Below, in pieces: positions 50,243 through 63,402 of a DNA stretch of 64,000 nt. This stretch comes from an uncultured Gammaproteobacteria bacterium (GTDB lineage Bacteria > Patescibacteriota > Microgenomatia > UBA8517): NCBI GenBank assembly GCA_964427735.1, contig CAYRUS010000002.1, positions 67,734 through 131,733 of the forward strand. The letters are read 5' to 3'. Below the pieces are notes generated by a model that searched no databases, had not been told where the DNA came from, and saw only the letters and a list, made by a program, of their open reading frames with translations. How positions within the stretch are numbered: position 1 is the stretch's first letter; every line of letters starts with the position of its first letter. The position numbers and the translations under genes were made by a program.

Positions 50243-50650
50243 GTGACTAGAGATAACGTAGTCGCTTTTTTTATATCCAGTTTTGTATATTCGAGAGGGT
50301 CCATTCAACTACAAAAAACTTTTTTAGAGTGGATGAGAATTAAACATAAAGTCCCATACAAAAAAATCATAAGAAATCTACTCAAGTCAGGTGGTGTCTT
50401 AAATCTACCTCATGAAGAACAGTGCTTACTCTTGAACAATTATTATAAATATAAAAATCACCATCATCGGGAAGATTATGGTAGTAAAGATGACGAAGAA
50501 TATATTTTGGACATGATCAATTCTTTCTTAGCTAGAGTGTTACTTCATGAGCCTTACTTATCCCTAAAACAATTGAAAAGGATAACATCTGCACAAGAGT
50601 TTATACAAAAAACTGAGGACTATTTTACAAAACGCACTGAAAAATCATAG
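50243..50650 (+). CDS. Hypothetical protein
   Basis: ORF track. Confidence 0.3.
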   Translation: MTRDNVVAFFISSFVYSRGSIQLQKTFLEWMRIKHKVPYKKIIRNLLKSGGVLNLPHEEQCLLLNNYYKYKNHHHREDYGSKDDEEYILDMINSFLARVLLHEPYLSLKQLKRITSAQEFIQKTEDYFTKRTEKS

Positions 50651-50698
50651 TTTGTTAATATGTGTAAAGCTGGATGTAAGCTCCTGATTTTAGGCTTA

Positions 50699-51498
50699 TT
50701 ATTTTAAACTCTCACCTAGTTGAATTAATCTATCTATATTTCTCTCTGATGGATCATATTCCGGTAAATGGCTATTTTCTTTTAAAAATTTATCCAATGC
50801 TCTTTGCGATGCTTGAATCTTTTCTCTTGATGCATTTAGCATAAGTTTATTCATAGGATCTTCATTCGATATTGGTTTGATTCCACCATTAACAATACGG
50901 TATCCAGAGGTACTTGGGAAATCGACAAATAAACCTTCAGTTAAGTGAATCAACCGATGATCATTTCCAGAAGGACGTCTAACTGCTATTACTTCTCCAC
51001 CTTTGTAATTTATTAATTGCTCTACTTCATACTTTTCATTGATAAACTCTAATAAGCTTAAGTTATGTTTGGCTCTATTAATAAGCCGATTATCTGAAAA
51101 TCCTGCTCTTTCTATGACTTCACTTTGTAATGACCCATAAACTCCTGTGTCAACATGCCAAAGAGTAACCGAATCTGCCCGAGAACCAACTGCAGAACCT
51201 ACTTCTTGAGCAAGATAATCTATTAATAACGGATGATTCCTGACCGAACTAGAAATATATAGCTGAATAATATTTTTTTCTCAATTCCATAATCTTCAGA
51301 ATACTGCCGAGCCATTCTATAAAAAGGATAAGCATCTCGCATATAGCATAGAATAAGATTGTTCTCTGGACCTCTTTTATGTACCTCTCTTAATGTTTTA
51401 TCAACCCACATACCAATTAGAGGGATCGCTACTTGCTCTACAAACTGTGGAAGTTTTTCAATTTTTGCAGAACTATTCTCTTGCTGTGGTCCTTCCAT
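50699..51498 (-). pseudogene. Single gene split by a -1 frameshift at an A7 homopolymer (coding strand; T7 at 51273-51279 on +). Frame A runs 51498..51223. Frame B is open from 51280 to 50699 with no start codon until the TTG at 50953.
   Basis: Hand translation. Frame B is open upstream of the ORF-track start for about 109 codons (about 194 codons open in total) but contains no ATG/GTG/TTG there. Frames A and B overlap exactly at GAGAAAAAAATATT. Adding one A restores a single ~280-aa ORF. Confidence 0.55.
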
Positions 51499-51523
51499 TA
51501 TAAATTTATAAATATCAAAAATA

Positions 51524-52198
51524 TTATTTTTTAAGTTGATCTTTAAGAAGAGTTAGTGTTTTAGATATATCTTCGATCAATGCCAATTGATCTTGAGGCA
51601 TACCACTATTTCTCCAAGAATCAGGGTGCCAAAATCTCAGACGTTTAACGACAATTTTTTTGTTCCTTAATTCTGTTGGGACGCTTGCTAAAGATGGGTT
51701 GCGAGAACTAGTCAAATCCCCTTGGTTTATTTTCATTATAAGTGGAAAATATTCTCTTTCTTCTAATCGGACTCGTGTGGCTTTAATTTCTTCTTCATCT
51801 AGAATTACACCTTGTTCTCTTAACGCATTTCTAAGTGAGGAATTATCTGATTCTGGTGTCCTCCTTAAAGCACCTGCAACTCTATCATCTAATCTTTTGA
51901 ATCTGTCTGCTTCGTCTCCATATATTAACTCATAGAACGACAATTCTTGAGGTTGCTTTCTTTGTTCTGGAAAAGATGATCCTGCGTCGACGCCTTCCCC
52001 ATACCAAGAATTTCCTCTTGCCTTTTTGTTATAATAATATTCATTTTTCCACCCTTTAAAAAAAGCATTAATATTTTCACCCGGATTTTCACTAAATTGT
52101 AAATCTTGATGAATTATTGAATTAAGTTCTGGAGCTGGAATAGAATCTACCATCACATATATTATAAATGACTTATTTACACACCGCAAATTTCCCAA
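51524..52198 (-). CDS. Hypothetical protein
   Basis: ORF track. Confidence 0.35.
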   Translation of the reverse strand: MGNLRCVNKSFIIYVMVDSIPAPELNSIIHQDLQFSENPGENINAFFKGWKNEYYYNKKARGNSWYGEGVDAGSSFPEQRKQPQELSFYELIYGDEADRFKRLDDRVAGALRRTPESDNSSLRNALREQGVILDEEEIKATRVRLEEREYFPLIMKINQGDLTSSRNPSLASVPTELRNKKIVVKRLRFWHPDSWRNSGMPQDQLALIEDISKTLTLLKDQLKK

Positions 52199-52215
52199 AC
52201 TATAAGTCCTAAAGA

Positions 52216-52923
52216 TTACTTATTTAATAACGGAAGACTGACATTTAAATCATGAGGTAGTTTGCCTTTATACACATTCTCATCTTCTGAAACTTTAATT
52301 ACCAAACTTGTATGATCCATACTAAATAATTTCATACTTGAGATATAAGATACCTCTTCTCTCCAATCAGTTCTTTCTCTCAAACAAAGAAAAACCTCTA
52401 GCAGTTTTGGCTTCAAAATACCATTTTCTTTAGTTCTATGCATGCCTGTGGCATTAGTAAAAACTAAAAACACAGGAAATTTATTCTCTCGCACAGGAGT
52501 TAAGAGGCTATCTATTCCTGCTTGAACCGCAGAAGCAGCTCTCCTTATTTTGTTATTTGGTATTAATGTTTTTTGGCCACTTTCACTATCAAAACTAATG
52601 TCATAGTTTCCTTTATTATCAGCCAAATAATGGTGATCTAGAATATTTGGATTAACTGTGTTGAGATATACATCAAAAAATTTCGTTATACGCTCACCTG
52701 TTAAGCCTCCTGAATATGTATCTCTAATTCCGATTTTTTCAGATACATGGAAGGCTCTTTGCTGAATTTTATCAATAATTGCAGTTCTCGATTCAGCTAA
52801 TCTTAGAACTTCAGTTTCTCTTGCCATCTCCGATAGTATATCAATTATTTCCCAAAAATAAATATGGGGTTGATTGCAATTCTTAAGATAATTTGTTAAG
52901 ATACTTTTGTCCGAAGAAAACAC
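52216..52923 (-). CDS. Hypothetical protein
   Basis: ORF track. Confidence 0.35.
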   Translation of the reverse strand: MFSSDKSILTNYLKNCNQPHIYFWEIIDILSEMARETEVLRLAESRTAIIDKIQQRAFHVSEKIGIRDTYSGGLTGERITKFFDVYLNTVNPNILDHHYLADNKGNYDISFDSESGQKTLIPNNKIRRAASAVQAGIDSLLTPVRENKFPVFLVFTNATGMHRTKENGILKPKLLEVFLCLRERTDWREEVSYISSMKLFSMDHTSLVIKVSEDENVYKGKLPHDLNVSLPLLNK

Positions 52924-53036: not shown

Positions 53037-53558
53037 ATGCTAACCAAACAAGACAAAAAAGAACTAGTATCAAATTTAACTGACACATTTAAACAGTCAA
53101 GTGCTGTTATTTTAGTTGACTATTCCGGACTTAGTGTCTCTATGCAGCAAGAGCTAAAATCAAGATTAGCTGAGGCTGACGCTAAAATGGTTGTTGTTAA
53201 AAACACCTTGATTAAGTTAGCAGGAAAAAAGGCAGAAATTAATGACGATGCAGTCAGTGATGAAGTGCTAGCTGGTCAAACAGCTGTCATTTATACAGAC
53301 AGCGATCCTATTTCCCCACTCCAAATTCTTGCTAAATTTGCAAAAGAATTCGAAGTACCACAAATGAAAGTAGGAATTGTAGAAGGAAAATTTCAAAGCA
53401 AAGAAAATTTAACAGCTTTATCCAAACTTCCAGGAAAAGACGTTCTTTCAGCACAAGCTGTTGGAGCAATTGGAGCTCCACTTTATGGTCTTGTTAGTAC
53501 ATTACAAGGAAATTTACAAAAACTTGTGTTTATTTTAAGTGAGGCTAGTAAAAAGTAA
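53037..53558 (+). CDS. rplJ: 50S ribosomal protein L10
   Basis: MLTKQDKKELVSNLTDTFKQSSAVILVDYSGLSVSMQQELKSRLAEADAKMVVVKNTL. Confidence 0.85.
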   Translation: MLTKQDKKELVSNLTDTFKQSSAVILVDYSGLSVSMQQELKSRLAEADAKMVVVKNTLIKLAGKKAEINDDAVSDEVLAGQTAVIYTDSDPISPLQILAKFAKEFEVPQMKVGIVEGKFQSKENLTALSKLPGKDVLSAQAVGAIGAPLYGLVSTLQGNLQKLVFILSEASKK

Positions 53559-53640: not shown

Positions 53641-54084
53641 GTGTTCAAAATGGCAGCAGACGAAACAAAAAAAGAAGAAAAGAAAGACGTAAGTAAAAAC
53701 GTTGCAAAAATTGTTGAGGACGTAAAAGGTCTAAGCGTTCTTGAACTTTCTGAGTTAGTTAATACACTTCAGGAAGAATTAGGAGTAACAGCAGCACCTA
53801 TGGCAGCAGCACCTGTAGCAGCAGGAGCAGCAGCAGGTGGTGATGAAGCCGCAGCTGGTGATGAAGCATCTGGAGGCGGAACAGTAGTCTTGACAGACGC
53901 AGGAAGTCAAAAGATCCAAGTCATTAAAGCTCTTAGAGAAATCAATCAAAATTGGGGTCTTAAAGAAGCAAAAGAAATGACTGAAAGCACACCTGTTGAA
54001 GTTCTTAAGGATGCAAAACCTGAAGAAGCAAAAGAAGCCGCTGAGAAGCTTAAAGCAGCAGGTGCGACAGTTGAACTTAAGTAA
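53641..54084 (+). CDS. rplL: 50S ribosomal protein L7/L12
   Basis: RBS GAAAGGAGGTG. Ala-rich hinge. C-terminal KIQVIKALREINQNWGLKEAKEMTESTPVEVLKDAKPEEAKEAAEKLKAAGATVELK. Confidence 0.9.
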   Translation: MFKMAADETKKEEKKDVSKNVAKIVEDVKGLSVLELSELVNTLQEELGVTAAPMAAAPVAAGAAAGGDEAAAGDEASGGGTVVLTDAGSQKIQVIKALREINQNWGLKEAKEMTESTPVEVLKDAKPEEAKEAAEKLKAAGATVELK

Positions 54085-54108
54085 AAGTTTGACTAATTAA
54101 TAAAGAAA

Positions 54109-54134
54109 AGCTCTCTTTTTGAGAGCTTTTTTTA
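54109..54134. terminator. Intrinsic terminator after rplL (stem AGCTCTC/GAGAGCT, loop TTTTT, followed by T7). Also serves the convergent minus-strand gene.
   Basis: Seen in sequence. Confidence 0.6.
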
Positions 54135-54157
54135 TTGCTTAATTATTTAGTAATCAC

Positions 54158-54517
54158 TTATTTCGACGTTTCTTCAATAACATACATAATATCAGCTTGA
54201 AGCTGTGGCATTAAACCATTAAATTCTTCAGAATCCAAAAAACCATCTACAATTGGTTCATTTTCATTTGAATCTTCTAATTCTTCAAGTTCTTCAAGTT
54301 CATTACCCATTCTGTTTGCATTTTGTTCTTCTACTAGGTTATTTCTAAGCTCGATAAACAAATTTTTAACTGTGACAGGTAGACTGGCAAACTGTTCTCT
54401 GTATAATCTCTGTTCATCAATGGGAATATCGTTTTGTGCGTTATAAAATGCCCAATTGATTGCCTCTCTCCAGATTGAATTTAAATCAGCTAGACTTTTA
54501 CTATTTCCTTCCGGCAT
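54158..54517 (-). CDS. Hypothetical acidic protein
   Basis: ORF track. Confidence 0.35.
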   Translation of the reverse strand: MPEGNSKSLADLNSIWREAINWAFYNAQNDIPIDEQRLYREQFASLPVTVKNLFIELRNNLVEEQNANRMGNELEELEELEDSNENEPIVDGFLDSEEFNGLMPQLQADIMYVIEETSK

Positions 54518-54604
54518 TTAATATTATCTCCTTTTGGTTTAGTAATAATATTATACTACAAATATATTTCCTCCTCATTCCTTATATCAGAAATTACAAA
54601 TTTT

Positions 54605-56032
54605 TTAATTTATTAATTCTTCCAGATCAGTATCAGTAATTCCTAATTGATCTAGTATCCAAATATGTCTTGGGTTCGAGGGGTCATATTTCCCAACGCT
54701 AAATCGCATCATCTCTTCAGGGTTTTTTTTAACAATATTCCAAACGGCAATATTTCCTTCTCGATAAACAATATCTTTAGTAAAAGCTACTCCAGGTGTG
54801 GCAGAATCTGTTCCTCTAAATGTTCTCACAGTCCTGTTCCAGGCATTCAAATCGGCATACCTCTCAGCCTTTTCTTTAGTTTTACCTGCCAATAAACCTT
54901 TCATTTTGTAATACAGCTTTGTAATTTCAAATACTTGCCTAAAATCGCGCGGGGACCCATCTAATCCATATGCTAAACCTATTGAGAGATGACCAACAAA
55001 ACCAGCAAATTCATCCACTTTTCCTACAATAGTTTGTTCCCTCATCGTTGCAACTCCCTCTTCTCCACCTTCATAACGGTCAAGCCCCAATCCCAAAAGC
55101 ATTAGCCGACTTCTTTCTCCTCTATCTCTTCTTTTCGCATGCGTTCCAAGCTCGTGAACAATGAGCTGCTGGACTTTTAAGCTATCGAAACTCCTATCTG
55201 ATCGGGGGACTTTCACTTCTTTGCTCTCTTGCGAAGCTCTTATAGCTGTTGCACTAGAATCATCCTCTATTACTGTCCATCCTTGCAATTCCATTTCTTC
55301 GATAGCCTCACTAAATACATTCAATAGATCTTCAGGTTTATAAGTAGTATCAGCTTCAGGTAGAGTAATTATATTTCCAAACTCGTTTAAAGTAGTTTCT
55401 TTGGCTGTTTGAATTGTTTTATCATCGGGTAATTCAGCAATTGTAACTTCAGGCATATCAGGTAGAATCCTGATAAGCTCTTCAGCTGTACTGGATAATT
55501 CTTGATAATCTATTCCCATCTCTTCATAACTTTTATTGCTAGCTTCTTCAATAACATTGTTTGCCTGCTTTTTTAATTCATTAACTGTATAAGCAAAAAC
55601 ATTATTCGATGGTTTTCCGTATATAAACTCGGAATATCTACGAAATCGCCTCATATCACCAATTGATGCAGCTTGAAGCATTCGAAGTTCTGCAATCTTT
55701 TCATTCAATTTGGGGCGGTAGGCTTCTCTAACTATTTTATTTGTTTCCTTCATTAATAAATCCCTTTTAAGTCTAAGTAATTCTGATTCACGCTCTTGCA
55801 ACTTAGCTATATCAAGTTTTGGATAGTCCAAGGTTGGATTTTCAATTTCACCTCTGAAAAAAACTTCTCTGTGTGCATTTCTATAATCTTTATCACCATC
55901 AAAATATTCATAAGCCTCGAATCTTCCATGCTCAGAAAATCTTTCGTACCATTCGCTATCCAAGTCATTGACCTTACTAATCTGTTCTACGTTACTATCA
56001 CCATCATGATTTATTACACCTTCTGATTCCAT
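54605..56032 (-). CDS. DUF1704-like protein (flavohemoglobin expression-modulating QEGLA-motif family), putative zincin-type metallopeptidase
   Basis: LIVHELGTHAKRRDRGE (HExxxH-like) and EEGVATMREQ (QEGLA-like). Gene neighbourhood with a RimK-like ATP-grasp as described for this family. Confidence 0.45.
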   Translation of the reverse strand: MESEGVINHDGDSNVEQISKVNDLDSEWYERFSEHGRFEAYEYFDGDKDYRNAHREVFFRGEIENPTLDYPKLDIAKLQERESELLRLKRDLLMKETNKIVREAYRPKLNEKIAELRMLQAASIGDMRRFRRYSEFIYGKPSNNVFAYTVNELKKQANNVIEEASNKSYEEMGIDYQELSSTAEELIRILPDMPEVTIAELPDDKTIQTAKETTLNEFGNIITLPEADTTYKPEDLLNVFSEAIEEMELQGWTVIEDDSSATAIRASQESKEVKVPRSDRSFDSLKVQQLIVHELGTHAKRRDRGERSRLMLLGLGLDRYEGGEEGVATMREQTIVGKVDEFAGFVGHLSIGLAYGLDGSPRDFRQVFEITKLYYKMKGLLAGKTKEKAERYADLNAWNRTVRTFRGTDSATPGVAFTKDIVYREGNIAVWNIVKKNPEEMMRFSVGKYDPSNPRHIWILDQLGITDTDLEELIN

Positions 56033-56047
56033 AATATTTAGATATTT

Positions 56048-57346
56048 TTACTCACTCTTTTTAATTGGATCTACCAGAAACCCTGCTAAGTCACGTCTAC
56101 CAATTATTAAATCGTATTTTAGCCTTTTTCTGTTTGCAACACCTGCTGTTGTATTAATTTTTTTACCTTTTAACCAAAATGTAATATCAATAATTGGCCT
56201 TTTTTGTATTCCCAATGAGCTTTTAACTTTCTTGTGCCATAAAACATTATCTTCTTCCAATAATCCCAATTCCCTAGCAAGGCTCCTGTCGATCGAAGAC
56301 CTCCACGCTCCTGTATCTATTTTTGCTTTTATTTTTACCTTTTTACCCGTTTTCTTGTTTCTAACCTTAACTTCTTCAAAAATTCTTAAGGTTTTTACTC
56401 CCTCTTCAGCTCTTACCTTGTCAGCAAAAGGACCGGAAAACAATGCCTTGGAAACTTTTATTCCATGATCGGCATCAATTATTTCAAGATCTTCAATTCT
56501 CTCTAGTCTTCGCCTTAATCCTGCAGAATTGGCTAGCTGAATAGATAAACCTGGCTGGTTATTAATTTCCAGTACCATTGGACCTTTACTAGGATGCAAA
56601 ACAATATCTGCTCCTAAATATCCAAGTCCTGTAACGTCCTGACATCTTATGGCTATTTCTAAGATTTTGTTCCAATGAGGAATCTTAATTCCATGTAGTT
56701 TTCTTTTTGTCCCTGGTTTGTATTTTATATATTCACCATGCAAAATTGCTTTTGTAGTAATTCCAGTAGCAATATCAATACCGGCTGCTATTGCCCCTTG
56801 ATGCAAATTTGCTCTACCACCTGATTCTTTTGTAGGCAACCTAAGCATAGCCATGACAGGTACTTTATTAAAGACAATTACACGGATGTCAGGAGTTCCT
56901 CGATAAGAATACTTAATTAATGATTTATGCCTGCCTACAAATTCCTGAAAAATAGCAATATCCGGAACATTATTAACAGAATGAGCTCCTTCCATTATGT
57001 CTAAAATATGCAGCTTAAGATCTTCAATTGTTATTCGTCTTCGCTGAGTTGTTATCCACCCCTCTCCTTTTTCTGCTTTTTTCTTTACTACAATAATCCC
57101 TTCTCCTCCAAGACTTTTGCTTGGTTTGAGTACAAACGACCCAGGGAGATGTTCCCAATCAAATTTTTCAATATCTCTAGGCTCTTTTAAAGTCGCATAA
57201 ATTTCAGGCGTTGGTATTCCTGCCTTTTTTAGATATTTGTAGGTCAAAATCTTTGACTGTGCGATCCTTTTGCCTTTTGCACTATTGTATTCAGATGTAT
57301 ACAGAAATGAACGTGCATTTAACCCTAGTATTGAAGATGCTTTCAT
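56048..57346 (-). CDS. RimK-like ATP-grasp peptide ligase fused to a C-terminal retropepsin-like (DUF785-type) aspartic peptidase domain
   Basis: ATP-grasp motifs VLKPSKSLGGEGI, DIRVIVFN and GADIVLHPSKGPMVLEINNQPGL. C-terminal AKIDTGAWRSSID (DTG). Confidence 0.75.
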   Translation of the reverse strand: MKASSILGLNARSFLYTSEYNSAKGKRIAQSKILTYKYLKKAGIPTPEIYATLKEPRDIEKFDWEHLPGSFVLKPSKSLGGEGIIVVKKKAEKGEGWITTQRRRITIEDLKLHILDIMEGAHSVNNVPDIAIFQEFVGRHKSLIKYSYRGTPDIRVIVFNKVPVMAMLRLPTKESGGRANLHQGAIAAGIDIATGITTKAILHGEYIKYKPGTKRKLHGIKIPHWNKILEIAIRCQDVTGLGYLGADIVLHPSKGPMVLEINNQPGLSIQLANSAGLRRRLERIEDLEIIDADHGIKVSKALFSGPFADKVRAEEGVKTLRIFEEVKVRNKKTGKKVKIKAKIDTGAWRSSIDRSLARELGLLEEDNVLWHKKVKSSLGIQKRPIIDITFWLKGKKINTTAGVANRKRLKYDLIIGRRDLAGFLVDPIKKSE

Positions 57347-57352
57347 ATCCCT

Positions 57353-58276
57353 TTACCCAGAAATCAACTTCCTGAATCTCCATAATTCTATAAATCTCAA
57401 ACCTACATATTTGCCAACTAGTATATCAAACACAGCAACAGACATTATTAATGCCTCTGGATGTAGTAAGGCAAACTCCTGCAAAGGTTCTAATGTCAAG
57501 AAAATATAGGAAACCAAGGCCAATATTAAGGTCTCTGTTGTAATGTTTATTGCTGTCTTTGCACTTTTACCTAATTGAACTTTTGTAAAGTCCTCCCCTA
57601 AAAGCACTAAAATCAAAACAGGGAAAATTGATACATTGGTAAGATTTTGAGATTGGAATAGTGGCGCAGCAAACAATACTCCTAAAACTCCAAGTACAAC
57701 AAACAGCAACAGCAAAGCCATTCTAGGCAAATACTGCAGCTTTACTTTAAGTTTCCTGAGCACAAACCTCATAGAAATGATAACAGTAACAATCACCAAA
57801 AATATACCTATACCAACAACAGGTCCTGTAGCAACAAATACAACAGAAAGTGCTGCAGGCAAAAATATGCCAAAACCACGAAGTCCAATTACATGCCTGG
57901 CTGCAGCAATCACAGCAGCAACAACTGGTAACAAAAGCAGTAATACTATTGTATTGGGGGGCACACCTGCAGCTACAGATTGGCGTATAGCATACTTTAT
58001 TGGATTATATGGAAAAACTCTATCTATTTTTTGCTCCTCTAAAAGCTTAGTCAATGGGTTTGTAGAATCTTCCGAGCGCTGAGTTATATCCGGTCTTGGT
58101 GTTGGTGTAGGTGTCGGCTCAGGAGATGGGCTAGGACTTGGGCTTGGAGATGGTGATGCAATAATTACAGATCTTGTCTGAGCCGAAGACTGAGAAGGTA
58201 AAATCAAATTTGCGGCAAAAAGAAATAACAAGAAAAATACAACTAATTTCTTAAACATACTCTTTCTATTATACAA
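57353..58276 (-). CDS. Signal peptide, extracellular (SP)n-rich segment and a 7-TM domain. The 7-TM module type is found with RimK-like ATP-grasp systems. No transglutaminase domain.
   Basis: PSPSPSPSPSPEPTPTPTPRP followed by seven hydrophobic helices. 6-nt gap to the ATP-grasp gene on the same strand. Confidence 0.5.
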   Translation of the reverse strand: MYNRKSMFKKLVVFFLLFLFAANLILPSQSSAQTRSVIIASPSPSPSPSPSPEPTPTPTPRPDITQRSEDSTNPLTKLLEEQKIDRVFPYNPIKYAIRQSVAAGVPPNTIVLLLLLPVVAAVIAAARHVIGLRGFGIFLPAALSVVFVATGPVVGIGIFLVIVTVIISMRFVLRKLKVKLQYLPRMALLLLFVVLGVLGVLFAAPLFQSQNLTNVSIFPVLILVLLGEDFTKVQLGKSAKTAINITTETLILALVSYIFLTLEPLQEFALLHPEALIMSVAVFDILVGKYVGLRFIELWRFRKLISG

Positions 58277-58305
58277 AGCTGTGTAGGTAATTGTAAAACT
58301 AAATC

Positions 58306-58632
58306 CTATTCTTGAAGTCCTTCATTTTCAATAATCCAAGCTCGTACATCGTCTGGTAATTCGTCTAACGAGTCAATGTCTAATAATGAAGCTACTAATT
58401 CTATACCTGTATCTCCTCCAGAAGTGATTTTATATTGTACTCTAGATTCTGCTATCAGACCCAAAATTAAAGCTTCTTTAATAGTGTGTTTAAGATGCTC
58501 TTCGTCTTCTCCGAAATATTTTCTATACAATTTTGAGTAATTCAGCGCAAATTCTTTTGCATTAGAAAGATTAGCAGCTAAAACAGGGCTCTGGGCAAGT
58601 ACCTTCTCTGCATCATTTGGTATTTCATTCAT
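58306..58632 (-). CDS. Hypothetical protein
   Basis: ORF track. Confidence 0.3.
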   Translation of the reverse strand: MNEIPNDAEKVLAQSPVLAANLSNAKEFALNYSKLYRKYFGEDEEHLKHTIKEALILGLIAESRVQYKITSGGDTGIELVASLLDIDSLDELPDDVRAWIIENEGLQE

Positions 58633-58762
58633 AACTGGAGTGATTATAATATGTCATCCTATATTTGGCGAGCCTTACTGATCTTAGGCTTAATTTCTAA
58701 ATTAAATACCCCCCCTACTTACCTATATTTTTAATTCAAAATGAAAGTGATATAATATAGCT

Positions 58763-59236
58763 ATGGCAGATTCAGAAAAGGACCATAAGCAAATACCGCC
58801 TATCAAACCCTTTATCCCTAATTTGGATAAGTATATTGAAGAACTTCTTGGGAAAACACCTGATCCTAAAAACAGGGCCATCGACAATGACACAAGTGAA
58901 GATGAGTCTTCTTCTTCTACTTGGGACTCATTAGATAAAGAAATTAATCTCTTAATTGAAAAAGAGAAACTAGCACTTCAAGCTTACAATAAATATCATA
59001 ACGATACAAAGCTTACGGATCCTGACCCTAACCGTCAGCAGGAAGTTTATCAAAATCTTCAAGAAATTCGATATAAAATAACTGAGTTAAGAAATGAACG
59101 AGATAGACTGTTTAAAAAGGCGTTTAGTCATGAGGATGCATATCGTTTCGAGTTGAGAAGAATTTTGGGTAGAAAACCAACAGAAGAAGAGCTGGAAAAC
59201 TTTATGAATAGCCCTGACAGACCTATTTTCCGCTAA
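58763..59236 (+). CDS. Hypothetical protein
   Basis: ORF track. Confidence 0.3.
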   Translation: MADSEKDHKQIPPIKPFIPNLDKYIEELLGKTPDPKNRAIDNDTSEDESSSSTWDSLDKEINLLIEKEKLALQAYNKYHNDTKLTDPDPNRQQEVYQNLQEIRYKITELRNERDRLFKKAFSHEDAYRFELRRILGRKPTEEELENFMNSPDRPIFR

Positions 59237-59245
59237 AGTAAATTA

Positions 59246-59902
59246 TCACGAATTAAATATCCTTCTGGCGTATACATCAAGACTTGTAATACCTTTCATC
59301 TTAAATATTTCATCACTAACAAAAGTGTCATAAACATCTTTATTCAACTCCCAATGGCATAATATTTCCCCTCTGTCCCAAACTTTTTTAATTACACCTA
59401 TATTTTCGAGATGCTCCCATTCTCTTTTGATACCTTTAGATTTTCCATGTCTATTAAAAAGAAATTGGTATGGTGGATAAATTAACTTTTCATCTCTCCT
59501 GACTTTTGCTAGTTCAAATTGGTCCGTCTTAAAAGCTGCAAAGAAAGGAAAAAGTACGTAACCAAAGGTTGTTGGGCTGCTTATTTGTCTCGCAAAACTA
59601 TGTTTGATAGCCTCCCAATAATCAGTTCCATTTTCACTTTGACTATATTGAATATCAGATCTGTCTAGATAAAGTGACATAACGCTGGCTAATTTTAAAA
59701 GTGTATAAGATGAATTAGATTCTAGTACTTCATCCGGTACAGATAACGCAAGTGCCTTTCTGTCTTCAAATGCTCTAGAAACATACCTTTTGTGGCTCTC
59801 CAGATCAAAAATCTGGTAGGCTAATCTTCTCAATGGAGGCAGTGATTCTAGTATTTCAGCTTCTTCTTCGTTTATTGTTTTCTTAACTCGCTCCATACTC
59901 AA
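59246..59902 (-). CDS. Hypothetical protein
   Basis: ORF track. Confidence 0.35.
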   Translation of the reverse strand: MSMERVKKTINEEEAEILESLPPLRRLAYQIFDLESHKRYVSRAFEDRKALALSVPDEVLESNSSYTLLKLASVMSLYLDRSDIQYSQSENGTDYWEAIKHSFARQISSPTTFGYVLFPFFAAFKTDQFELAKVRRDEKLIYPPYQFLFNRHGKSKGIKREWEHLENIGVIKKVWDRGEILCHWELNKDVYDTFVSDEIFKMKGITSLDVYARRIFNS

Positions 59903-60074: not shown

Positions 60075-60842
60075 TTACTCAAAGTTACACCATTCTAAAC
60101 CAGAATATACAACCATATATTCAATGAATTCCTTTTTGATTTCATCTTTATTTTGCCCCAAACTAATAGCCAATGTCTGAAGTCCTTCTTCTGGCAGAAG
60201 ACCATTTAACTTTAATTTACCAGTCACTTCTTCTATATTTAGTCCTTTTTTCTCCAATGCAAAGTATGCAACTCCCAAAATTAAATTATTTAAATCTGGC
60301 TTGAAATTTATCCTAAAAGTTTCTTTGTCTGTTTGTGTTAATATCTCCCTGCCTATACCCAAAATTCGTTTCACTTCCTCTTTTGTAAATCCTTCTCCTT
60401 CTTTATCCACTGCCGCACGTAATCCTCTTGCTACCCTTCCGTTCCCTTCTCTAAATTTATGTAAAAGCACATTGGCAAAATACACTCCATTTGCAAATCT
60501 GTTTCTATCAATCTCACCTGCTAGAAATCTTTCGGATAGCTTATTTAATATTGTATACTCAACACTTCTTGCGTTCTTAGGCTTCACCCAAATTGGACCT
60601 ACGGCATGCATCACAGCTGTCTCAGGAGTGGAGTAAATTAAGTCATCCGGATGAGCATCTACAACAGACCTATTTAATCTCTTTGAAGCAGCAACCAACA
60701 CATCAGCTAGGTTCTTTGAATCACCCCTCTTAATTACTTGTTCAATATTAACTAAAACTCCATTTAAACTTTCTGTAACTTTTGGAATTGTGTACTCCTT
60801 GAAGGAATCACTGTTTTTATCATTAGTGTTCTCCATATACAA
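60075..60842 (-). CDS. Fic/Doc family protein (AMPylation-type fold)
   Basis: Fic motif LLHKFREGNGRVARGL (HxFx[D/E]GNGRxxR). Confidence 0.75.
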   Translation of the reverse strand: MYMENTNDKNSDSFKEYTIPKVTESLNGVLVNIEQVIKRGDSKNLADVLVAASKRLNRSVVDAHPDDLIYSTPETAVMHAVGPIWVKPKNARSVEYTILNKLSERFLAGEIDRNRFANGVYFANVLLHKFREGNGRVARGLRAAVDKEGEGFTKEEVKRILGIGREILTQTDKETFRINFKPDLNNLILGVAYFALEKKGLNIEEVTGKLKLNGLLPEEGLQTLAISLGQNKDEIKKEFIEYMVVYSGLEWCNFE

Positions 60843-60844
60843 AT

Positions 60845-62197
60845 TTACGCCACTTTATCCTTTAAAGCTGAATAAAACTTTTCGAGGTAGTCTTCTGCGT
60901 TATCCCAGTGGTAATCACCAAAGCCAGCCTCTGCCATTTTTCTTTCATAAGCAGCCATAACTCTTAAATGGGCGAGGTTTGCAGCTTGAAATGCAGATAT
61001 TCTATAAACCTCAGCATAAAGCTGTCTTGCTGACTCCTCCACCTCACCTCTCGGAATACTATCAGATTCTATGTCTTTCCAAAATTTTACTTCTAAGTTG
61101 GCTACGATAGATGGCTCAAAAGCTAACTTTACCTCTTCTTTTATAATTTCATAAAAACCCACTAAGTGCTTTTTGGCTTTTCCCCATTTACTTCTTTTTC
61201 TTTCAGTAATTGCCTCAATCATGTACTTTGCAGCCATAGATGCGTGGTTTTTAGAAAGGCCGTATTGTTCTTTTAAGTGCATTACTGTATATTCGCTGAA
61301 TTTTGTACCTTCCGGAATCTTTGACAATCTCCACCAAGCTACTTCAAACTTTGCAGCTAACTCAGGAGTGAATTTAAATTGCTTTACTTCATCATTTCCG
61401 CCAAATCTTCTTCTTCTTCTGGAGTAATCTAAAATAGCTTCTTTTAATTTGTTTGGTGTAAATGCAGGAAAATTCAATGGCTCAAAGTACATTTCAGCAT
61501 AAATAGACTGCCAAGCAAGTACTCCGCTTGTCCTTTGTTCCCCGCTTGTTCTAATGATTAAATCAGGATATGGATAAGGTTGTCCGGATGTGTCCATGTA
61601 ACTGTCGATGAGTTTTGCATTAATCTTACTTGGATTAACTTTGTCCTCAAGCATCCTTTTGACGGCTCTCTCAAGCTCGTCTTGTCCATTGTAATCCAAA
61701 GCAAGGTTAAGAATGTGAGACTTATTGTCTTGAGTTTTTTCTTCTATCTCAGCAAGTTTATTTAAAAGTACTTTAGGAAGTCTATCTTTTCTTCCTAGAT
61801 GAATCACCTTTACATCATTTTCCATTGCTTCTTGGAAATACATGCCTAGTTCTCTGGAAATAAGCTTCATCAAAAATTTAACCTCGTTCTCTGGTCTTTC
61901 AATCCAGTTTTCCGTTGATAGACCCCAAGCAGTAGCTGTATGTATCCCCCATTTTCTAGCTGCTTCAAGCAGTTGAATCATGTTTTTGGTTCCTGCCCTA
62001 TGCCCCTCAATTGCAGTCAACCCTCTTGCTCTCGCCCAACGCCTATTTCCATCTGGAATTATGACTACATGGTTAGGAACTTTAGTGCCTTGTGGAAGCG
62101 AAAGATCAATATTCTTTTTAATCCTGGCCATAGACTCTAAAATTATACCACAAGAATTACTGAATACTGTCAAATATATTAGACCTCCCACCGTCAA
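60845..62197 (-). CDS. uppS: Undecaprenyl-diphosphate synthase (cis-prenyltransferase) with an unusual ~200-aa C-terminal extension. The likely start is the internal MARIKK at 62131.
   Basis: VVIIPDGNRRWARARGL, GHRAG, IIRTSGEQRTSG and RRRRFGG. Confidence 0.8.
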   Translation of the reverse strand: MTVGGLIYLTVFSNSCGIILESMARIKKNIDLSLPQGTKVPNHVVIIPDGNRRWARARGLTAIEGHRAGTKNMIQLLEAARKWGIHTATAWGLSTENWIERPENEVKFLMKLISRELGMYFQEAMENDVKVIHLGRKDRLPKVLLNKLAEIEEKTQDNKSHILNLALDYNGQDELERAVKRMLEDKVNPSKINAKLIDSYMDTSGQPYPYPDLIIRTSGEQRTSGVLAWQSIYAEMYFEPLNFPAFTPNKLKEAILDYSRRRRRFGGNDEVKQFKFTPELAAKFEVAWWRLSKIPEGTKFSEYTVMHLKEQYGLSKNHASMAAKYMIEAITERKRSKWGKAKKHLVGFYEIIKEEVKLAFEPSIVANLEVKFWKDIESDSIPRGEVEESARQLYAEVYRISAFQAANLAHLRVMAAYERKMAEAGFGDYHWDNAEDYLEKFYSALKDKVA

Positions 62198-62265: not shown

Positions 62266-63402
62266 ATGCCTACAGTAAAAAAAGTAATCACAGGGACAAA
62301 AAGCAAAGAGGCAAAAGAAGCAAAAAAAAACTTACTCAAATTTGTTGAAGTAATAAATAAAGAACTTGAAAATTACTTTGATGAGGAACTCAAATCCCCT
62401 TTTGGAATAGGTAAAGAAGAAAAGAAACTTACCACACAAATCTTTAAGCACATTAAAGAACACAATCTTCGCCCGGCAAAACGATTGAGAGCTTCTCTTG
62501 TTTATTATGGCTACAAACTATTTAATGGAAAAGACAAAAAAAACATTTTAAAGGCAGCTATGAGCATTGAGCTTGTCCACACAGCCCTGCTTATGCACGA
62601 TGATTTTATGGATAAAGATGAAACTAGGCGAGGAAAACCAACCACACACACTCTTTTTAGAGATTTGCACAAAAAAAACAAATTTAGAGGAGACCCTATC
62701 CATTATGGTGAAAGCATGGCTGTTGACGTAGGTGATGTGGCACTTTGTCTTGGATTTGAACTTTTAGCTAATTCTAAATTTTCTGATGATTATAAAATTA
62801 AGGCACTAGCACGTCTACACAGAGGAATAGCAAATACAGCAGTCGGTCAGGCTTATGACATTACTCTGGAAAGCCTTGGAAAGGCAAAAGAAAAAGATAT
62901 TCTTAATCTCCACCTAGCCAAAACAGCCATTTATACTTACGAGAATCCATTAAATATCGGTGCAACGCTAGCAGGAGCAACACATAAAGATTTACAACTA
63001 TTGACAGATTACTCATATCCGGCCGGTATTGCATTTCAGCTTCAGGATGATGTTTTGGGTCTTTTTGGAAATCCCGAAAAGACTGGTAAACCAGACAATT
63101 CTGATTTAAAACAAGGTAAGATGACACTGTTAATAATCAAAGCTTTAGAAACTGCTGATAAAAAGCAAAAACAAGCTCTTCTAAAGTACTGGGGAAAAGA
63201 AAATATAACAAAAAAAGAAGCAAATATCGTAAGAAAAATTGTTATTGATACCGGATCGTATGATTACTCCAAAAAGATCTCAAGAAAGTGGGCAAAAAAA
63301 GCTCAAGAAGTTATACCTGAGATGGAAAAAAGAAAATGGAACAAGGAAGCTATAAATTATCTAAACGGTATTGCTCAATATATGGTTGAAAGAGATATAT
63401 AG
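62266..63402 (+). CDS. trans-Polyprenyl diphosphate synthase (FPP/GGPP/longer-chain synthase family)
   Basis: FARM LLMHDDFMDKDETRRGKPTTH and SARM GIAFQLQDDVLG. Confidence 0.8.
   Translation: MPTVKKVITGTKSKEAKEAKKNLLKFVEVINKELENYFDEELKSPFGIGKEEKKLTTQIFKHIKEHNLRPAKRLRASLVYYGYKLFNGKDKKNILKAAMSIELVHTALLMHDDFMDKDETRRGKPTTHTLFRDLHKKNKFRGDPIHYGESMAVDVGDVALCLGFELLANSKFSDDYKIKALARLHRGIANTAVGQAYDITLESLGKAKEKDILNLHLAKTAIYTYENPLNIGATLAGATHKDLQLLTDYSYPAGIAFQLQDDVLGLFGNPEKTGKPDNSDLKQGKMTLLIIKALETADKKQKQALLKYWGKENITKKEANIVRKIVIDTGSYDYSKKISRKWAKKAQEVIPEMEKRKWNKEAINYLNGIAQYMVERDI

What the first reader, a model, noticed from the sequence alone, without database searches (positions are those of the whole stretch)
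54605..58276. ATP-grasp/retropepsin + 7TM + DUF1704 cluster, a predicted peptide-ligase/peptidase system
Three co-directional genes form the cluster. The first is a signal-peptide 7-TM membrane protein with an extracellular (SP)n stalk. The second is a RimK-like ATP-grasp ligase fused in one polypeptide to a retropepsin-like DTG aspartic peptidase domain. The third is a DUF1704-like protein with a zincin-like HExxxH. This matches the comparative-genomics prediction (ATP-grasp amidoligase systems of the RimK clade) of operons that ligate amino acids onto protein or peptide tails and trim them. No experimentally defined function is known. The direct ATP-grasp–retropepsin fusion and the 7TM lacking its usual inactive-transglutaminase partner are variations worth noting. 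The cluster replaces rpoBC downstream of rplL.
Basis: partly seen in the sequence, partly recalled or inferred. Interest (0 to 1): 0.6.

Follow-up and report, generated by a model that had tools for sequence, protein, structure and literature searches.

The report
Membrane-linked peptide ligase with built-in trimming proteases
A candidate-phyla bacterium carries a compact three-gene operon (a membrane protein, an amino-acid ligase fused to a small protease, and a relative of the enzyme that trims tubulin tails), a stripped-down version of a bacterial stress-tolerance system whose chemistry is still unknown.

Summary
Three tightly packed minus-strand genes encode a signal-peptide 7TM protein (PF14402), an ATPgrasp_ST/RloC-type ligase fused C-terminally to an intact DTG retropepsin domain, and a MATCAP/DUF1704 metallopeptidase with HExxxH and EEG motifs.

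- It is a ligase plus trimming-peptidase system.
- "No experimental function" is outdated. Pseudomonas rloABC (2025), RimB/RimK and MATCAP have all been characterised.
- The fusion and the transglutaminase-less 7TM are not peculiar to this window. They are the standard Patescibacterial architecture: at least 579 matching stretches in species-representative genomes, and the 7TM gene lies directly upstream in 79 of 81 loci.
- The cluster does not "replace rpoBC". It lies convergent to rplJ-rplL, as in 38 related loci.

What is specific to this window is that MATCAP occupies the slot where its closest relatives carry RimK-like paralogues.

MATCAP-like genes recur with this module: 13 of 29 well-flanked loci, and one direct fusion. 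The residues RloA needs to cleave polyglutamate are invariant in the fused domain.

Best model: ATP-driven synthesis of an acidic, probably glutamyl, peptide at the membrane, trimmed by the two peptidases.

Verdict: new variant of a known kind, moderate interest.

The parts
58268..58297 (-). Sigma-70-like promoter (TTTACA-18-TATAAT, 11 of 12 matches) just upstream of ATG 58258
   Evidence: One search lists it as the best-scoring site in 53900-59400, and one search shows the sequence. The scan as a whole is not enriched over shuffles (14 found, 17.7 expected), so the support comes from position only.
57353..58258 (-). 7TM membrane protein, RloB-like but without the transglutaminase domain. It is 301 aa from ATG 58258, or 307 aa if the TTG at 58276 is used.
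   Evidence: Pfam PF14402 gives 2e-24. NCBIfam RloB matches model positions 313-506 of 508 only. Homologues of about 295-300 aa start at the MFK/MRK column. Hydropathy and the AF2 model give seven TM helices.
58181..58258 (-). Predicted cleavable signal peptide MFKKLVVFFLLFLFAANLILPSQSSA|QT
   Evidence: One search gives the translation and the hydrophobic segment. The consensus '..AQT' is conserved in A2. The cleavage site is inferred from the AXA rule and was not tested with a tool.
58091..58156 (-). Low-complexity Ser/Pro/Thr linker SPSPSPSPSPSPEPTPTPTPRP (extracytoplasmic stalk)
   Evidence: One search gives the translation. The linker is variable and P/S/T-rich in homologues. AF2 pLDDT is below 50 here. 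The DNA-level repeat is only weak.
57404..57958 (-). Seven-helix membrane core, with invariant R127/H128, E228/D229, K237, E248, E274 and the C-terminal motif E297-W-R-F-R302
   Evidence: Invariant columns are from A2, topology and the AF2 helices. Foldseek found no solved structural relative (best E = 1.5).
56048..57346 (-). ATP-grasp ligase / retropepsin fusion gene (432 aa)
56459..57346 (-). RloC-type ATP-grasp amino-acid ligase domain (aa 1-296). K74, E135, the R178-x-N180 loop 'GRANLHQGA', and the Mg ligands D247, E260 and N262 are all invariant.
   Evidence: ATPgrasp_ST 4.8e-70, TIGR02291 8.5e-78. The alignment to RimK 7QYS/7QYR covers the D-x..E-x-N and RxNLH motifs. The domain is 43-45% identical to the ligase of canonical rloABC loci L078, L080 and L081 (40% for L079). 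Foldseek hits ArgX, RimK and LysX.
56051..56395 (-). Retropepsin-like (RimB/RloA family, PF05618) aspartic peptidase domain (aa 318-432), net charge +17, no signal peptide
   Evidence: PF05618 scores 32.9 bits against a cutoff of 27, and RloA3 gives 2.8e-6. The best PDB sequence hits are RloA structures 9G59/9G58 and 2PMA. The AF2 beta-rich domain has pLDDT 80-92.
56309..56317 (-). Catalytic D344-T345-G346. The flanking residues K342 (56321-56323), R383 (56198-56200) and R406 (56129-56131) correspond to the RloA polyglutamate-binding residues K46, R114 and R137.
   Evidence: Coordinates are. Conservation is 55/55 for D, R383 and R406 among fused domains with D(T/S)GA. The mapping runs through the phmmer alignment to 9G59 and the residue list in PMC11957051. 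The 23-residue spacing between the two Arg residues is preserved.
54605..56032 (-). MATCAP/DUF1704-family gluzincin metallopeptidase (475 aa, cytoplasmic)
   Evidence: PF08014 9e-23 and TIGR02421 1.8e-18. A profile hit to human MATCAP 7Z5G aligns HEIGTH and EEG. There are 441 homologues; the best is about 54-56% identical.
55139..55156 (-). HExxxH metal-binding and catalytic motif H293-E294-L-G-T-H298. The EEG third-ligand motif E324-E325-G326 lies at 55055-55063.
   Evidence: One search gives the coordinates. H293, E294, H298, E325 and G326 are invariant in A3. The motif definition comes from PMC10499314.
54158..54517 (-). Acidic 119-aa ORF between MATCAP and the terminator. It may be co-transcribed; it is not conserved and its membership is doubtful.
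   Evidence: ORF. No homologue appears in 81 related loci. Only weak sub-threshold family hits. Net charge is -18.
54106..54130 (.). Terminator-like hairpin (10 pairs) between the convergent rplL and the cluster. It is reported on the minus strand with a T-tract; being palindromic, it may also serve rplL.

Best explanation
This is the Patescibacterial form of the RloBC/RloA (RimK-like) system.

The components are as follows.
- A 7TM membrane protein homologous to the membrane half of RloB. A signal peptide, a Ser/Pro stalk and a conserved ecto-segment of about 45 aa replace the inactive transglutaminase domain.
- A cytoplasmic RloC-type ATP-grasp amino-acid ligase, encoded in the same operon.
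- A catalytically competent retropepsin domain fused to the ligase's C-terminus.
- A MATCAP-family metallocarboxypeptidase, encoded by the third gene.

Proposed mechanism.
1. At the cytoplasmic face of the membrane the ligase uses ATP to add amino acids, most likely L-glutamate in alpha linkage. It adds them either to free glutamate, giving a short poly-acidic peptide, or to the carboxylate of an acceptor not encoded in the operon.
2. The fused retropepsin is strongly basic and carries the same Lys/Arg set that RloA uses to hold polyglutamate. It dimerises through the oligomeric ligase, cuts the acidic chain endoproteolytically, and probably also stimulates the ligase as RimB does for RimK.
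3. The MATCAP-like enzyme removes residues one at a time from the C-terminal end.
4. Together the two peptidases set the length and turnover of the product. The 7TM protein either exports or presents the product, or couples its synthesis to envelope state.

The likely physiological role is envelope or osmotic homeostasis.

Shown here: domain identities, intact catalytic residues, operon structure, and recurrent gene association. Inferred: amino-acid specificity, the product, physical coupling to the 7TM protein, and the physiological role.
For: Component identity.

The ligase is RloC-type.
- TIGR02291 scores 261 bits, against 63 bits for the RimK family model.
- The domain is 43-45% identical to the ligase of loci L078, L080 and L081 (40% for L079). 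L080 scored against the RloA, RloB and TIGR02291 models (only the last above its cut-off); L078, L079 and L081 share its gene order.

Obligate pairing with the 7TM gene.
- The 7TM gene is directly upstream in 79 of 81 loci.
- No third ORF is conserved across all loci. This argues that no dedicated protein substrate is encoded in the operon.

Acidic substrate.
- K342, R383 and R406, the equivalents of RloA K46, R114 and R137, are conserved in 54-55 of 55 active fused domains. They are lost together with the catalytic Asp in a clade of 18 loci.
- The active domains have a median net charge of +11, against +2 for the degenerate ones.
- RloA and RimB cleave polyglutamate, and RimB stimulates RimK polyglutamate synthesis.

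MATCAP linkage.
- The gap to the fusion gene is 15 nt on the same strand.
- A short MATCAP-like gene lies directly downstream in 13 loci and is fused to the ligase in L066.
- Among 29 loci anchored on the long MATCAP type with at least 3 kb of flank on each side, 13 carry the RloC-type ligase and 11 the 7TM gene. The order 7TM, fusion, RimK x1-3, MATCAP recurs.
- L159 has the same direct fusion-then-MATCAP junction as the window.
- MATCAP/TMCP enzymes trim acidic C-terminal tails.

Osmotic link.
- The rlo genetics: loss of the three RloA proteases is lethal in hypo-osmotic medium and is suppressed by deleting rloB or rloC.
- In Photobacterium at low salinity the QEGLA protein rises 27-fold, the adjacent ATP-grasp-annotated gene 38-fold and RimK 52-fold.
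Against: - No biochemical data exist for any RloC-type ligase, so glutamate specificity is only an analogy with RimK.
- The window ligase scores below the TIGR02291 equivalog cutoff (261 against 314 bits).
- In Pseudomonas the protease is periplasmic. Here both peptidases are cytoplasmic, so the logic of the system may differ.
- About half of the long MATCAP-like genes sit away from any ATP-grasp gene: after recR, or inside the dcw cluster. MATCAP may therefore have an independent role.
- The window's closest relatives (68-70% identity) carry RimK-like paralogues and no MATCAP.
- The 7TM fold has no solved relative, so export versus scaffold versus sensor cannot be distinguished.
- AF2 confidence is moderate (pLDDT 70-75).
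Confidence: 0.55

Rival explanations
1. A writer/eraser cycle on the C-terminal tail of one specific protein, analogous to RimK/RimB on ribosomal protein S6 or to TTL/MATCAP on tubulin. The ligase would extend the tail of a defined protein, and the retropepsin and MATCAP-like enzymes would remove the added residues. The 7TM protein would act as scaffold or as the target.
For: The nearest structural neighbours, ArgX/LysX and RimK, all modify protein C-termini. RimB removes Glu from glutamylated RpsF. MATCAP/TMCP act on protein tails. A ligase-MATCAP fusion exists in L066.
Against: No conserved third ORF could serve as substrate. The 7TM C-terminus is basic (…WRFRKLISG) and the fusion protein's C-terminus is not conserved. 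The flanking small acidic ORFs are not conserved. An unlinked substrate cannot be excluded.
Confidence: 0.2
2. Editing of a cell-envelope precursor. The ligase would add an amino acid to a peptidoglycan stem peptide or a lipid-linked intermediate at the membrane, and the carboxypeptidase would trim it. The 7TM protein would handle the lipid-linked substrate.
For: Pseudomonas rlo mutants show cell-shape defects and sensitivity to cell-wall antibiotics. A MATCAP-like gene lies between ftsW and murG in L086/L087. A class A PBP gene neighbours the module in L084. UppS and a polyprenyl synthase lie 2.5-4 kb upstream in the window, and UppS recurs upstream in 10 loci.
Against: The ATP-grasp domain scores far better with RimK-clade models than with Ddl-type models. 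The retropepsin keeps the polyglutamate-binding residues. The envelope-gene neighbours are not consistently present.
Confidence: 0.12
3. A ribosomal-protein modification system acting on L7/L12, L10 or S6, suggested by its position next to rplJ-rplL.
For: The ligase is related to RimK. The module lies convergent to rplJ-rplL in 38 of 81 loci.
Against: The orientation is convergent, with 1-7 kb of variable genes in between. The synteny is confined to the Woesebacteria-like clade, whereas other clades keep the 7TM-ligase pair in different contexts. A membrane partner is obligatory. The RimK equivalog model scores only 23.5 bits against a cutoff of 331. L12 ends in …ATVELK, not in Glu.
Confidence: 0.05
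4. The core system is only the 7TM protein plus the fusion protein. The MATCAP-like gene would be an independent housekeeping carboxypeptidase that happens to sit in the slot vacated by the RimK paralogues.
For: The closest relatives of the window's module lack MATCAP nearby. The closest MATCAP homologues (52-54% identity) lie after recR, with no ATP-grasp gene in the flank. Of 29 well-flanked loci, 16 lack an RloC-type gene within 6 kb.
Against: Having 13 of 29 loci with the ligase within 6 kb is far above chance for genomes of about 1 Mb. The operon order recurs on the same strand, and a direct fusion exists. The intergenic gap is 15 nt.
Confidence: 0.15

Closest known systems
Pseudomonas aeruginosa rloABC (RloA secreted retropepsins, RloB inactive-transglutaminase 7TM protein, RloC ATP-grasp; PMC11957051)
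   Same: The three domain families are the same: a TIGR02291/ATPgrasp_ST ligase, a PF14402 7TM domain and a PF05618 retropepsin carrying the polyglutamate-binding Lys/Arg set. The 7TM and ligase genes are adjacent and in the same order.
   Different: The 7TM protein lacks the transglutaminase domain. The retropepsin has no signal peptide and is fused to the ligase C-terminus, so it is cytoplasmic rather than periplasmic. There is an extra MATCAP-like gene. The host is a Patescibacterium, which on general knowledge is not expected to have an outer membrane or periplasm. The ligase scores below the equivalog cutoff.
RimBK hybrid and the RimABK system (Desulfotalea psychrophila DP2392; Pseudomonas RimB/RimK; PMC11957791)
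   Same: A retropepsin and a RimK-clade ATP-grasp ligase sit in one polypeptide. The protease cleaves polyglutamate tails and, in RimB/RimK, stimulates the ligase. The location is cytoplasmic.
   Different: The domain order is reversed: RimBK is protease-N and ligase-C, whereas here the ligase is N-terminal and the protease C-terminal. This indicates an independent fusion. The ligase is RloC-type, not RimK (23.5 bits against a cutoff of 331). There is an obligatory 7TM partner. Nothing here links the system to RpsF.
MATCAP/TMCP1-2 (KIAA0895L, KIAA0895), tubulin detyrosinase/deglutamylase; PDB 7Z5G
   Same: The Pfam family is the same (PF08014), with the HExxxH plus EEG gluzincin site. HEIGTH and EEG align. 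It is predicted to be a carboxypeptidase acting on acidic tails.
   Different: The relationship is distant (profile E = 1e-4 against PDB). The protein is bacterial and operon-linked to an ATP-grasp ligase. No microtubule-binding regions are expected. The substrate is unknown.
Proteobacterial QEGLA proteins (TIGR02421) next to ATP-grasp genes
   Same: The family and motif region are the same: EEGVA here against QEGLA. In Photobacterium the gene is adjacent to an ATP-grasp-annotated gene and co-induced with it at low salinity.
   Different: The score is 67 bits against a cutoff of 339, so this is not an equivalog. The N-terminal region is longer. That TIGR02421 genes neighbour TIGR02291 genes is recalled from the TIGRFAMs description and was not verified here.
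Eukaryotic tubulin tail code (TTL/TTLL ATP-grasp ligases with MATCAP, VASH and CCP peptidases)
   Same: It works in a similar way: an ATP-grasp ligase adds residues to an acidic C-terminal tail and a MATCAP-family enzyme removes them. That TTL enzymes have an ATP-grasp fold is established knowledge.
   Different: This is an analogy only. The ligase here belongs to the RimK/RloC clade, not the TTL clade, and no cytoskeletal substrate is indicated. The FtsZ tail in L086 ends with the ordinary DIPAFLRQGR.

Membership tests
RloABC system | RloC-type ATP-grasp ligase (TIGR02291 / PF14397) | tested here: inconclusive
   PF14397 scores 236 bits against a cutoff of 31 and passes. TIGR02291 scores 261.5 bits, below its cutoff of 314.2, whereas the RloC-position ligase of L080 scores 420. 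The window protein is a divergent relative, not an equivalog.
RloABC system | [quoted passage not shown] | tested here: not met
   Only model positions 313-506 of 508 of NF052267 match (67.9 bits against a cutoff of 900). After the signal peptide there are only about 75 residues before TM1, most of them low-complexity. The RloB-like protein of L080 matches positions 6-504.
RloABC system | Separate, secreted retropepsin with a signal peptide | tested here: not met
   The retropepsin domain is the C-terminal part of the cytoplasmic ligase polypeptide, and the N-terminus MKASSILGLNAR has no hydrophobic signal.
RloABC system | 7TM gene and ligase gene adjacent in one operon | tested here: met
   The gap is 6 nt in the window, and the genes are adjacent in 79 of 81 loci.
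RloABC system | Role in hypo-osmotic tolerance, with protease loss suppressed by loss of the ligase or the 7TM protein | not testable with these tools
   This needs genetics. The Pseudomonas data are in PMC11957051.
RimBK hybrid / RimK | RimK equivalog ligase (S6--L-glutamate ligase) | tested here: not met
   PRK10446 scores 23.5 bits against a cutoff of 331, and TIGR00768 scores 63 against 143.
RimBK hybrid / RimK | RimB domain N-terminal to the ligase | tested here: not met
   The order here is ligase (aa 1-296) then retropepsin (aa 318-432). RimBK has RimB at residues 1-163.
Retropepsin-like peptidases, RimB/RloA family (PF05618, clan AA) | Pfam score above the gathering threshold, with the catalytic D-T/S-G and the downstream G-R motif | tested here: met
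   PF05618 scores 32.9 bits against 27. D344-T-G and G416-R417 are invariant.
Retropepsin-like peptidases, RimB/RloA family (PF05618, clan AA) | Basic residues that coordinate polyglutamate (RloA K46, R114, R137) | tested here: met
   K342, R383 and R406 align to these residues, with the same 23-residue Arg-Arg spacing. They are conserved in 54-55 of 55 active fused domains. The mapping is by sequence alignment, not by structure.
Retropepsin-like peptidases, RimB/RloA family (PF05618, clan AA) | Homodimer forming the active site | not testable with these tools
   Only single-chain prediction is available. Dimerisation is inferred from retropepsin biology and from RimK being oligomeric.
MATCAP / DUF1704 (PF08014) | Pfam score above the gathering threshold | tested here: met
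   81.3 bits against 27.
MATCAP / DUF1704 (PF08014) | HExxxH motif plus EEG third metal ligand | tested here: met
   H293-E-L-G-T-H298 and E324-E-G326 are invariant in A3 and align to the HEIGTH and EEG of 7Z5G.
MATCAP / DUF1704 (PF08014) | Carboxypeptidase activity on acidic C-terminal tails | not testable with these tools
   This needs an enzyme assay.
QEGLA protein (TIGR02421 equivalog) | Score above the curated cutoff, and the QEGLA motif | tested here: not met
   67 bits against 338.65, and the motif reads EEGVA.
7TM_transglut (PF14402) | Pfam score above threshold, and seven TM helices | tested here: met
   86.9 bits against 25, matching model positions 58-247 of 248. Hydropathy and AF2 give seven helices with N-out, C-in topology.

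The most novel reading that the evidence does not exclude
The ligase and the MATCAP-like enzyme would form a bacterial, membrane-coupled "tail code". An ATP-grasp writer and a MATCAP eraser, with a retropepsin endo-eraser, would reversibly extend an acidic C-terminal tail or a free poly-alpha-glutamate. The 7TM protein would then export or sense this product.

On this reading the system is a prokaryotic antecedent of the eukaryotic tubulin tyrosination/glutamylation cycle. The 7TM protein, which has no solved structural relative, would be a new kind of peptide translocator or sensor.
Probability: 0.15. Interest if true: 0.8.

Novelty: new variant of a known kind. Interest (0 to 1): 0.5.

Why it matters
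The biochemical product of the RloBC-type system is unknown. In Pseudomonas the system affects osmotic tolerance, biofilm formation and sensitivity to cell-wall antibiotics.

The Patescibacterial version is a natural minimal form.
- It has no transglutaminase domain.
- The protease is tethered to the ligase.
- In this window there is only one ligase.

This makes it a convenient object for finding the product in vitro.

The repeated operon linkage, and one direct fusion, between the ligase and MATCAP-family peptidases gives a testable functional context for bacterial DUF1704/MATCAP proteins. It also hints that pairing a ligase with MATCAP predates eukaryotes.

The system is very common in candidate-phyla bacteria. 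More than 7,600 clusters at 90% identity were scored for the fusion protein. Knowing its role would annotate a sizeable piece of "dark matter" genomes.

Tried and rejected
- **Source contig.** The exact-sequence look-up of the window's fusion protein found no contig on record. The cluster look-up gave no names.
- **Literature.** Searches for the Pfam and TIGRFAM names found only one incidental paper.
- **Anti-phage defence.** PADLOC has no hit for any cluster gene.
- **Flanking small acidic ORFs as substrates** (58306-58632 and 54158-54517). They are not conserved in any of 81 related loci, so I rejected them as core parts.
- **rpoBC elsewhere in the window.** The 1323-aa and 927-aa ORFs at 19827-26581 are beta-propeller/dockerin and DUF5060 proteins.
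- **"MATCAP substitutes for a dead retropepsin."** This looked strong in the first 81 loci: 14 of 18 Asp-lost loci have MATCAP, against 2 of 54 active ones. It was weakened by the MATCAP-anchored sample, where the long type sits with active DTGA fusions in about 20 loci. It holds only for the short type in one clade, and the loci are not phylogenetically independent.
- **MATCAP acting on FtsZ**, suggested by the dcw-cluster position in L086. The FtsZ there ends with the ordinary DIPAFLRQGR peptide, so there is no support.
- **Recent horizontal transfer of MATCAP.** GC (0.369) and GC3 (0.258) match the neighbouring genes.
- **Remnant RimK paralogue in the window.** None was found among stop-to-stop ORFs of at least 60 aa.

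Full report
**What is there**

Three ORFs lie head to tail on the minus strand, at 58276..57353, 57346..56048 and 56032..54605. The gaps between them are 6 and 15 nt.

Pfam assigns them as follows.

| Gene | Family | Score (bits) | Cutoff (bits) |
|---|---|---|---|
| 1 | 7TM_transglut | 86.9 | 25 |
| 2 | ATPgrasp_ST | 236 | 31.4 |
| 2 | Zn_protease/RimB-like PF05618 | 32.9 | 27 |
| 3 | MATCAP PF08014 (formerly DUF1704) | 81.3 | 27 |

NCBIfam adds three matches.
- TIGR02291 "alpha-L-glutamate ligase-like" scores 261 bits.
- The RloB model matches only through model positions 313-506 of 508.
- The RloA3, RloA2 and RimB retropepsin models give weak hits, and TIGR02421 "QEGLA" scores 67 bits.

The best promoter-like site in the region (11 of 12 matches) lies at 58297-58268 and overlaps the TTG start. 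Homologues begin at the MFK column. The 7TM gene therefore most likely starts at ATG 58258. A hairpin terminator at 54130-54106 separates the cluster from the convergent rplL.

The window has about 35% GC. The best matches of all three proteins are from Candidatus Woesebacteria and other Patescibacteria MAGs.

**Catalytic competence**

In an alignment of 24 fusion proteins the ATP-grasp signature residues are invariant. These are K74, E135, the GRANLHQGA loop, and D247, E260 and N262. They align to the RxNLH and D..E.N motifs of RimK structures.

The retropepsin part has invariant D344-T-G and G416-R417. Its best PDB sequence matches are the RloA structures 9G59 and 9G58, and 2PMA.

The Rlo paper shows that RloA needs K46, R114 and R137 around the catalytic D48 to cleave polyglutamate. 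Through the 9G59 alignment these map to K342, R383 and R406, with the same 23-residue Arg-Arg spacing. They are conserved in 54-55 of 55 fused domains that keep D(T/S)GA.

The domain carries a net charge of +17. The median for active domains is +11.

The MATCAP-like protein has H293-E-L-G-T-H298 and E324-E-G326. These are invariant among 26 homologues and align to the HEIGTH and EEG of human MATCAP 7Z5G. This is the site defined for TMCP1/2.

The 7TM protein has, in order:
- a signal peptide;
- an (SP)6-(PT)3 stalk;
- a conserved ecto-segment of about 45 aa;
- seven helices with basic cytoplasmic loops;
- an invariant C-terminal E-x-W-R-F-R helix.

Its fold has no solved relative.

**How common the architecture is**

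The fusion protein has more than 7,600 scored relatives at 90% clustering. The best non-identical one is 70% identical.

In the 81 loci fetched:
- the 7TM gene is directly upstream in 79, and the other two contigs are cut at that end;
- 76 have the C-terminal retropepsin-like domain fused.

The 7TM proteins of this clade are about 295-300 aa long, without a transglutaminase domain.

The most distant loci, L078-L081 (Bacteriovoracaceae, Pseudomonadales, Verrucomicrobiota), show a different arrangement: a separate retropepsin, a 7TM protein of about 510-540 aa, and a ligase of about 315 aa. In L080 these score as RloA, full-length RloB and TIGR02291 at 420 bits.

They are the phylum-wide standard, not a peculiarity of this window.

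A RimB-RimK hybrid is already known and is active. However, its protease is N-terminal and its ligase is a true RimK. The Patescibacterial fusion has the opposite order on an RloC-type ligase, which implies an independent fusion.

**Accessory genes and what is specific to this window**

Downstream of the fusion gene, 52 of 81 loci carry one to three RimK-like ATP-grasp paralogues. Some add a methyltransferase or a roughly 790-aa ATP-grasp_3 protein.

The closest relatives of the window's fusion protein (70% and 68% identity) have the order 7TM, fusion, RimK(x1-2), then rplL and rplJ further on. They have no MATCAP gene.

The window has no RimK-like paralogue anywhere in its 64 kb. MATCAP sits in that slot, and its composition is native.

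In 38 loci the module is convergent with rplJ-rplL, at 1-7 kb. In other clades the context differs. The ribosomal neighbourhood is therefore inherited synteny, and "replaces rpoBC" is not an apt description. I found no rpoBC among the ORFs I scanned in the window.

**Is MATCAP part of the system?**

In a more distant clade a short MATCAP-like gene (315-340 aa) follows the fusion gene directly in 13 loci. In L066 it is fused to the ligase as ATPgrasp_ST, degenerate retropepsin, MATCAP; the MATCAP part scores 215 bits.

A metagenome scan anchored on the window's long MATCAP type gave 86 loci.
- Among the 29 with at least 3 kb on both sides, 13 carry the RloC-type ligase and 11 the 7TM gene within the flank.
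- The order 7TM, fusion (DTGA), RimK x1-3, MATCAP recurs.
- L159 has the same direct fusion-then-MATCAP junction as the window.

The rest lie elsewhere: after recR, or between ftsW and murG. Linkage is therefore frequent and far above chance, but not obligatory.

**A degenerate clade**

In 18 loci the fused domain reads NTGR, NTKR or HTGR instead of DTGA. It has also lost K342 and R383, and its charge is near neutral. It is a pseudo-protease that has nevertheless been retained.

This fits RimB's second, non-proteolytic role as a stimulator of the ligase.

Of these 18 loci, 14 have a MATCAP-like gene adjacent and one has a separate DTGA retropepsin. I first read this as functional substitution. 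The MATCAP-anchored sample shows the long type together with active DTGA domains. The substitution idea therefore holds at most for one clade.

**Mechanism**

The only universally conserved parts are the 7TM protein and the ligase-retropepsin. No dedicated substrate protein is encoded.

The ligase's structural neighbours are ArgX/LysX, RimK and the RiPP ligases PsnB and MdnC. All of them act on peptide or protein carboxylates.

The retropepsin is equipped for polyanionic substrates.

In Pseudomonas, loss of the RloA proteases is lethal in hypo-osmotic medium, and this is suppressed by deleting rloB or rloC. RloBC therefore make something that must be degraded.

RimK plus RimB makes free poly-alpha-glutamate.

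In Photobacterium at low salinity a QEGLA/MATCAP-family gene, its ATP-grasp-annotated neighbour and rimK are induced 27-, 38- and 52-fold.

The most economical model has three parts.
1. ATP-driven synthesis of an acidic, probably alpha-glutamyl, peptide at the membrane.
2. Endo-trimming by the tethered retropepsin and exo-trimming by MATCAP.
3. Export, presentation or sensing of the product by the 7TM protein, in envelope or osmotic homeostasis.

Domain identity, intact active sites, operon structure and gene association are shown. Amino-acid specificity, product, 7TM coupling and physiological role are inferred.

**Rivals**

- A protein-tail writer/eraser cycle on an unlinked substrate.
- Editing of a cell-wall precursor. 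This is suggested by the Pseudomonas cell-shape and beta-lactam phenotypes, and by occasional dcw, PBP and UppS neighbours.
- Ribosomal-protein modification, which is unlikely.
- MATCAP as an unrelated neighbour.

**Verdict**

This is a new variant of a known kind: the Patescibacterial, transglutaminase-less, ligase-retropepsin-fused form of the Rlo/RimK-like systems. Here it is in a minimal single-ligase version with a MATCAP-family peptidase.

Interest is moderate. The underlying chemistry is an open question, and this form is well suited to answering it. The gene families, their association and a related fusion are already described or predicted.

Noticed in passing
window 50243-52923: About 3 kb of ORFs with no Pfam match, on both strands (50243-50650 +, 50699-50953 -, 51223-51498 -, 51524-52198 -, 52216-52923 -), sit between rplA (49281-50063) and rplJ (53037-53558). 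They split the usually contiguous rplKAJL block. In relative L090, rplA and rplJ are separated by only two short ORFs.
   Followed up: partly
window 60075-60842 (-): This 255-aa ORF has no Pfam hit at E <= 0.001, yet it contains HKFREGNGRVAR, a match to the Fic-domain motif HxFx(D/E)GNGRxxR. Weak PADLOC PDC-S04 hits cover exactly that stretch (aa 125-141).
   Followed up: partly
window 60845-62197 (-) and 62266-63402 (+): An undecaprenyl-diphosphate synthase has a C-terminal extension of about 180 aa (450 aa in total, with the Prenyltransf match at residues 47-266). It is divergent from a polyprenyl synthetase gene. The extended UppS form recurs upstream of the module in 10 related loci (cluster c15).
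   Followed up: partly
L086/L087 6001-7335: A long MATCAP-like gene lies inside the division/cell-wall cluster between ftsW and murG, with mraY, a FemAB-like gene, ftsQ, ftsA and ftsZ around it. No ATP-grasp gene is nearby. The FtsZ C-terminus is ordinary (…DIPAFLRQGR).
   Followed up: partly
L066 6394-10367: This locus has a triple architecture, ATPgrasp_ST then degenerate retropepsin (NTNY) then MATCAP, in one 790-aa protein. It is preceded by a 532-aa 7TM protein whose ecto-domain is a PKD domain rather than a transglutaminase or a Ser/Pro stalk.
   Followed up: partly
L048, L052, L055-L066, L068-L077 (fusion genes): This clade's fused retropepsin-like domain has lost the catalytic Asp (NTGR, NTKR or HTGR) and the basic residues K342 and R383, yet the domain is retained. 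It is probably a pseudo-protease kept as a regulatory or structural module.
   Followed up: yes
L001 5553-5930: A gene for a 23S rRNA intervening-sequence protein (PF05635) is inserted between the 7TM and fusion genes in a complete Woesebacteria genome (CP065002.1). A Y1 transposase gene lies downstream of the RimK paralogues.
   Followed up: no
L017, L029, L030, L036, L037, L039, L040, L046 (gene downstream of the fusion): A protein of about 790 aa has an ATP-grasp_3 domain (residues ~190-340) and large regions with no Pfam match. In some Woesebacteria it takes the place of the RimK paralogues. Its shorter fragment (301 aa) has no Pfam hit at all.
   Followed up: partly
record titles (e.g. 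L004, L007, L009, L055): Many MAG records are titled "uncultured Gammaproteobacteria/Pseudomonadales bacterium" but carry the Woesebacteria-type module and rplJL synteny. The record titles look like mislabelled taxonomy.
   Followed up: no
window 19827-26581 (-): Two very large adjacent ORFs of 1323 and 927 aa. The first has PQQ-like beta-propeller and dockerin matches, and the second a sub-threshold DUF5060 match. They are probably surface proteins.
   Followed up: no
window 58306-58632 (-) and 54158-54517 (-): Two small, strongly acidic ORFs (net charge -11 and -18) flank the cluster on the same strand. The downstream one contains ELEELEELEDSNENE. Neither is conserved in related loci.
   Followed up: partly
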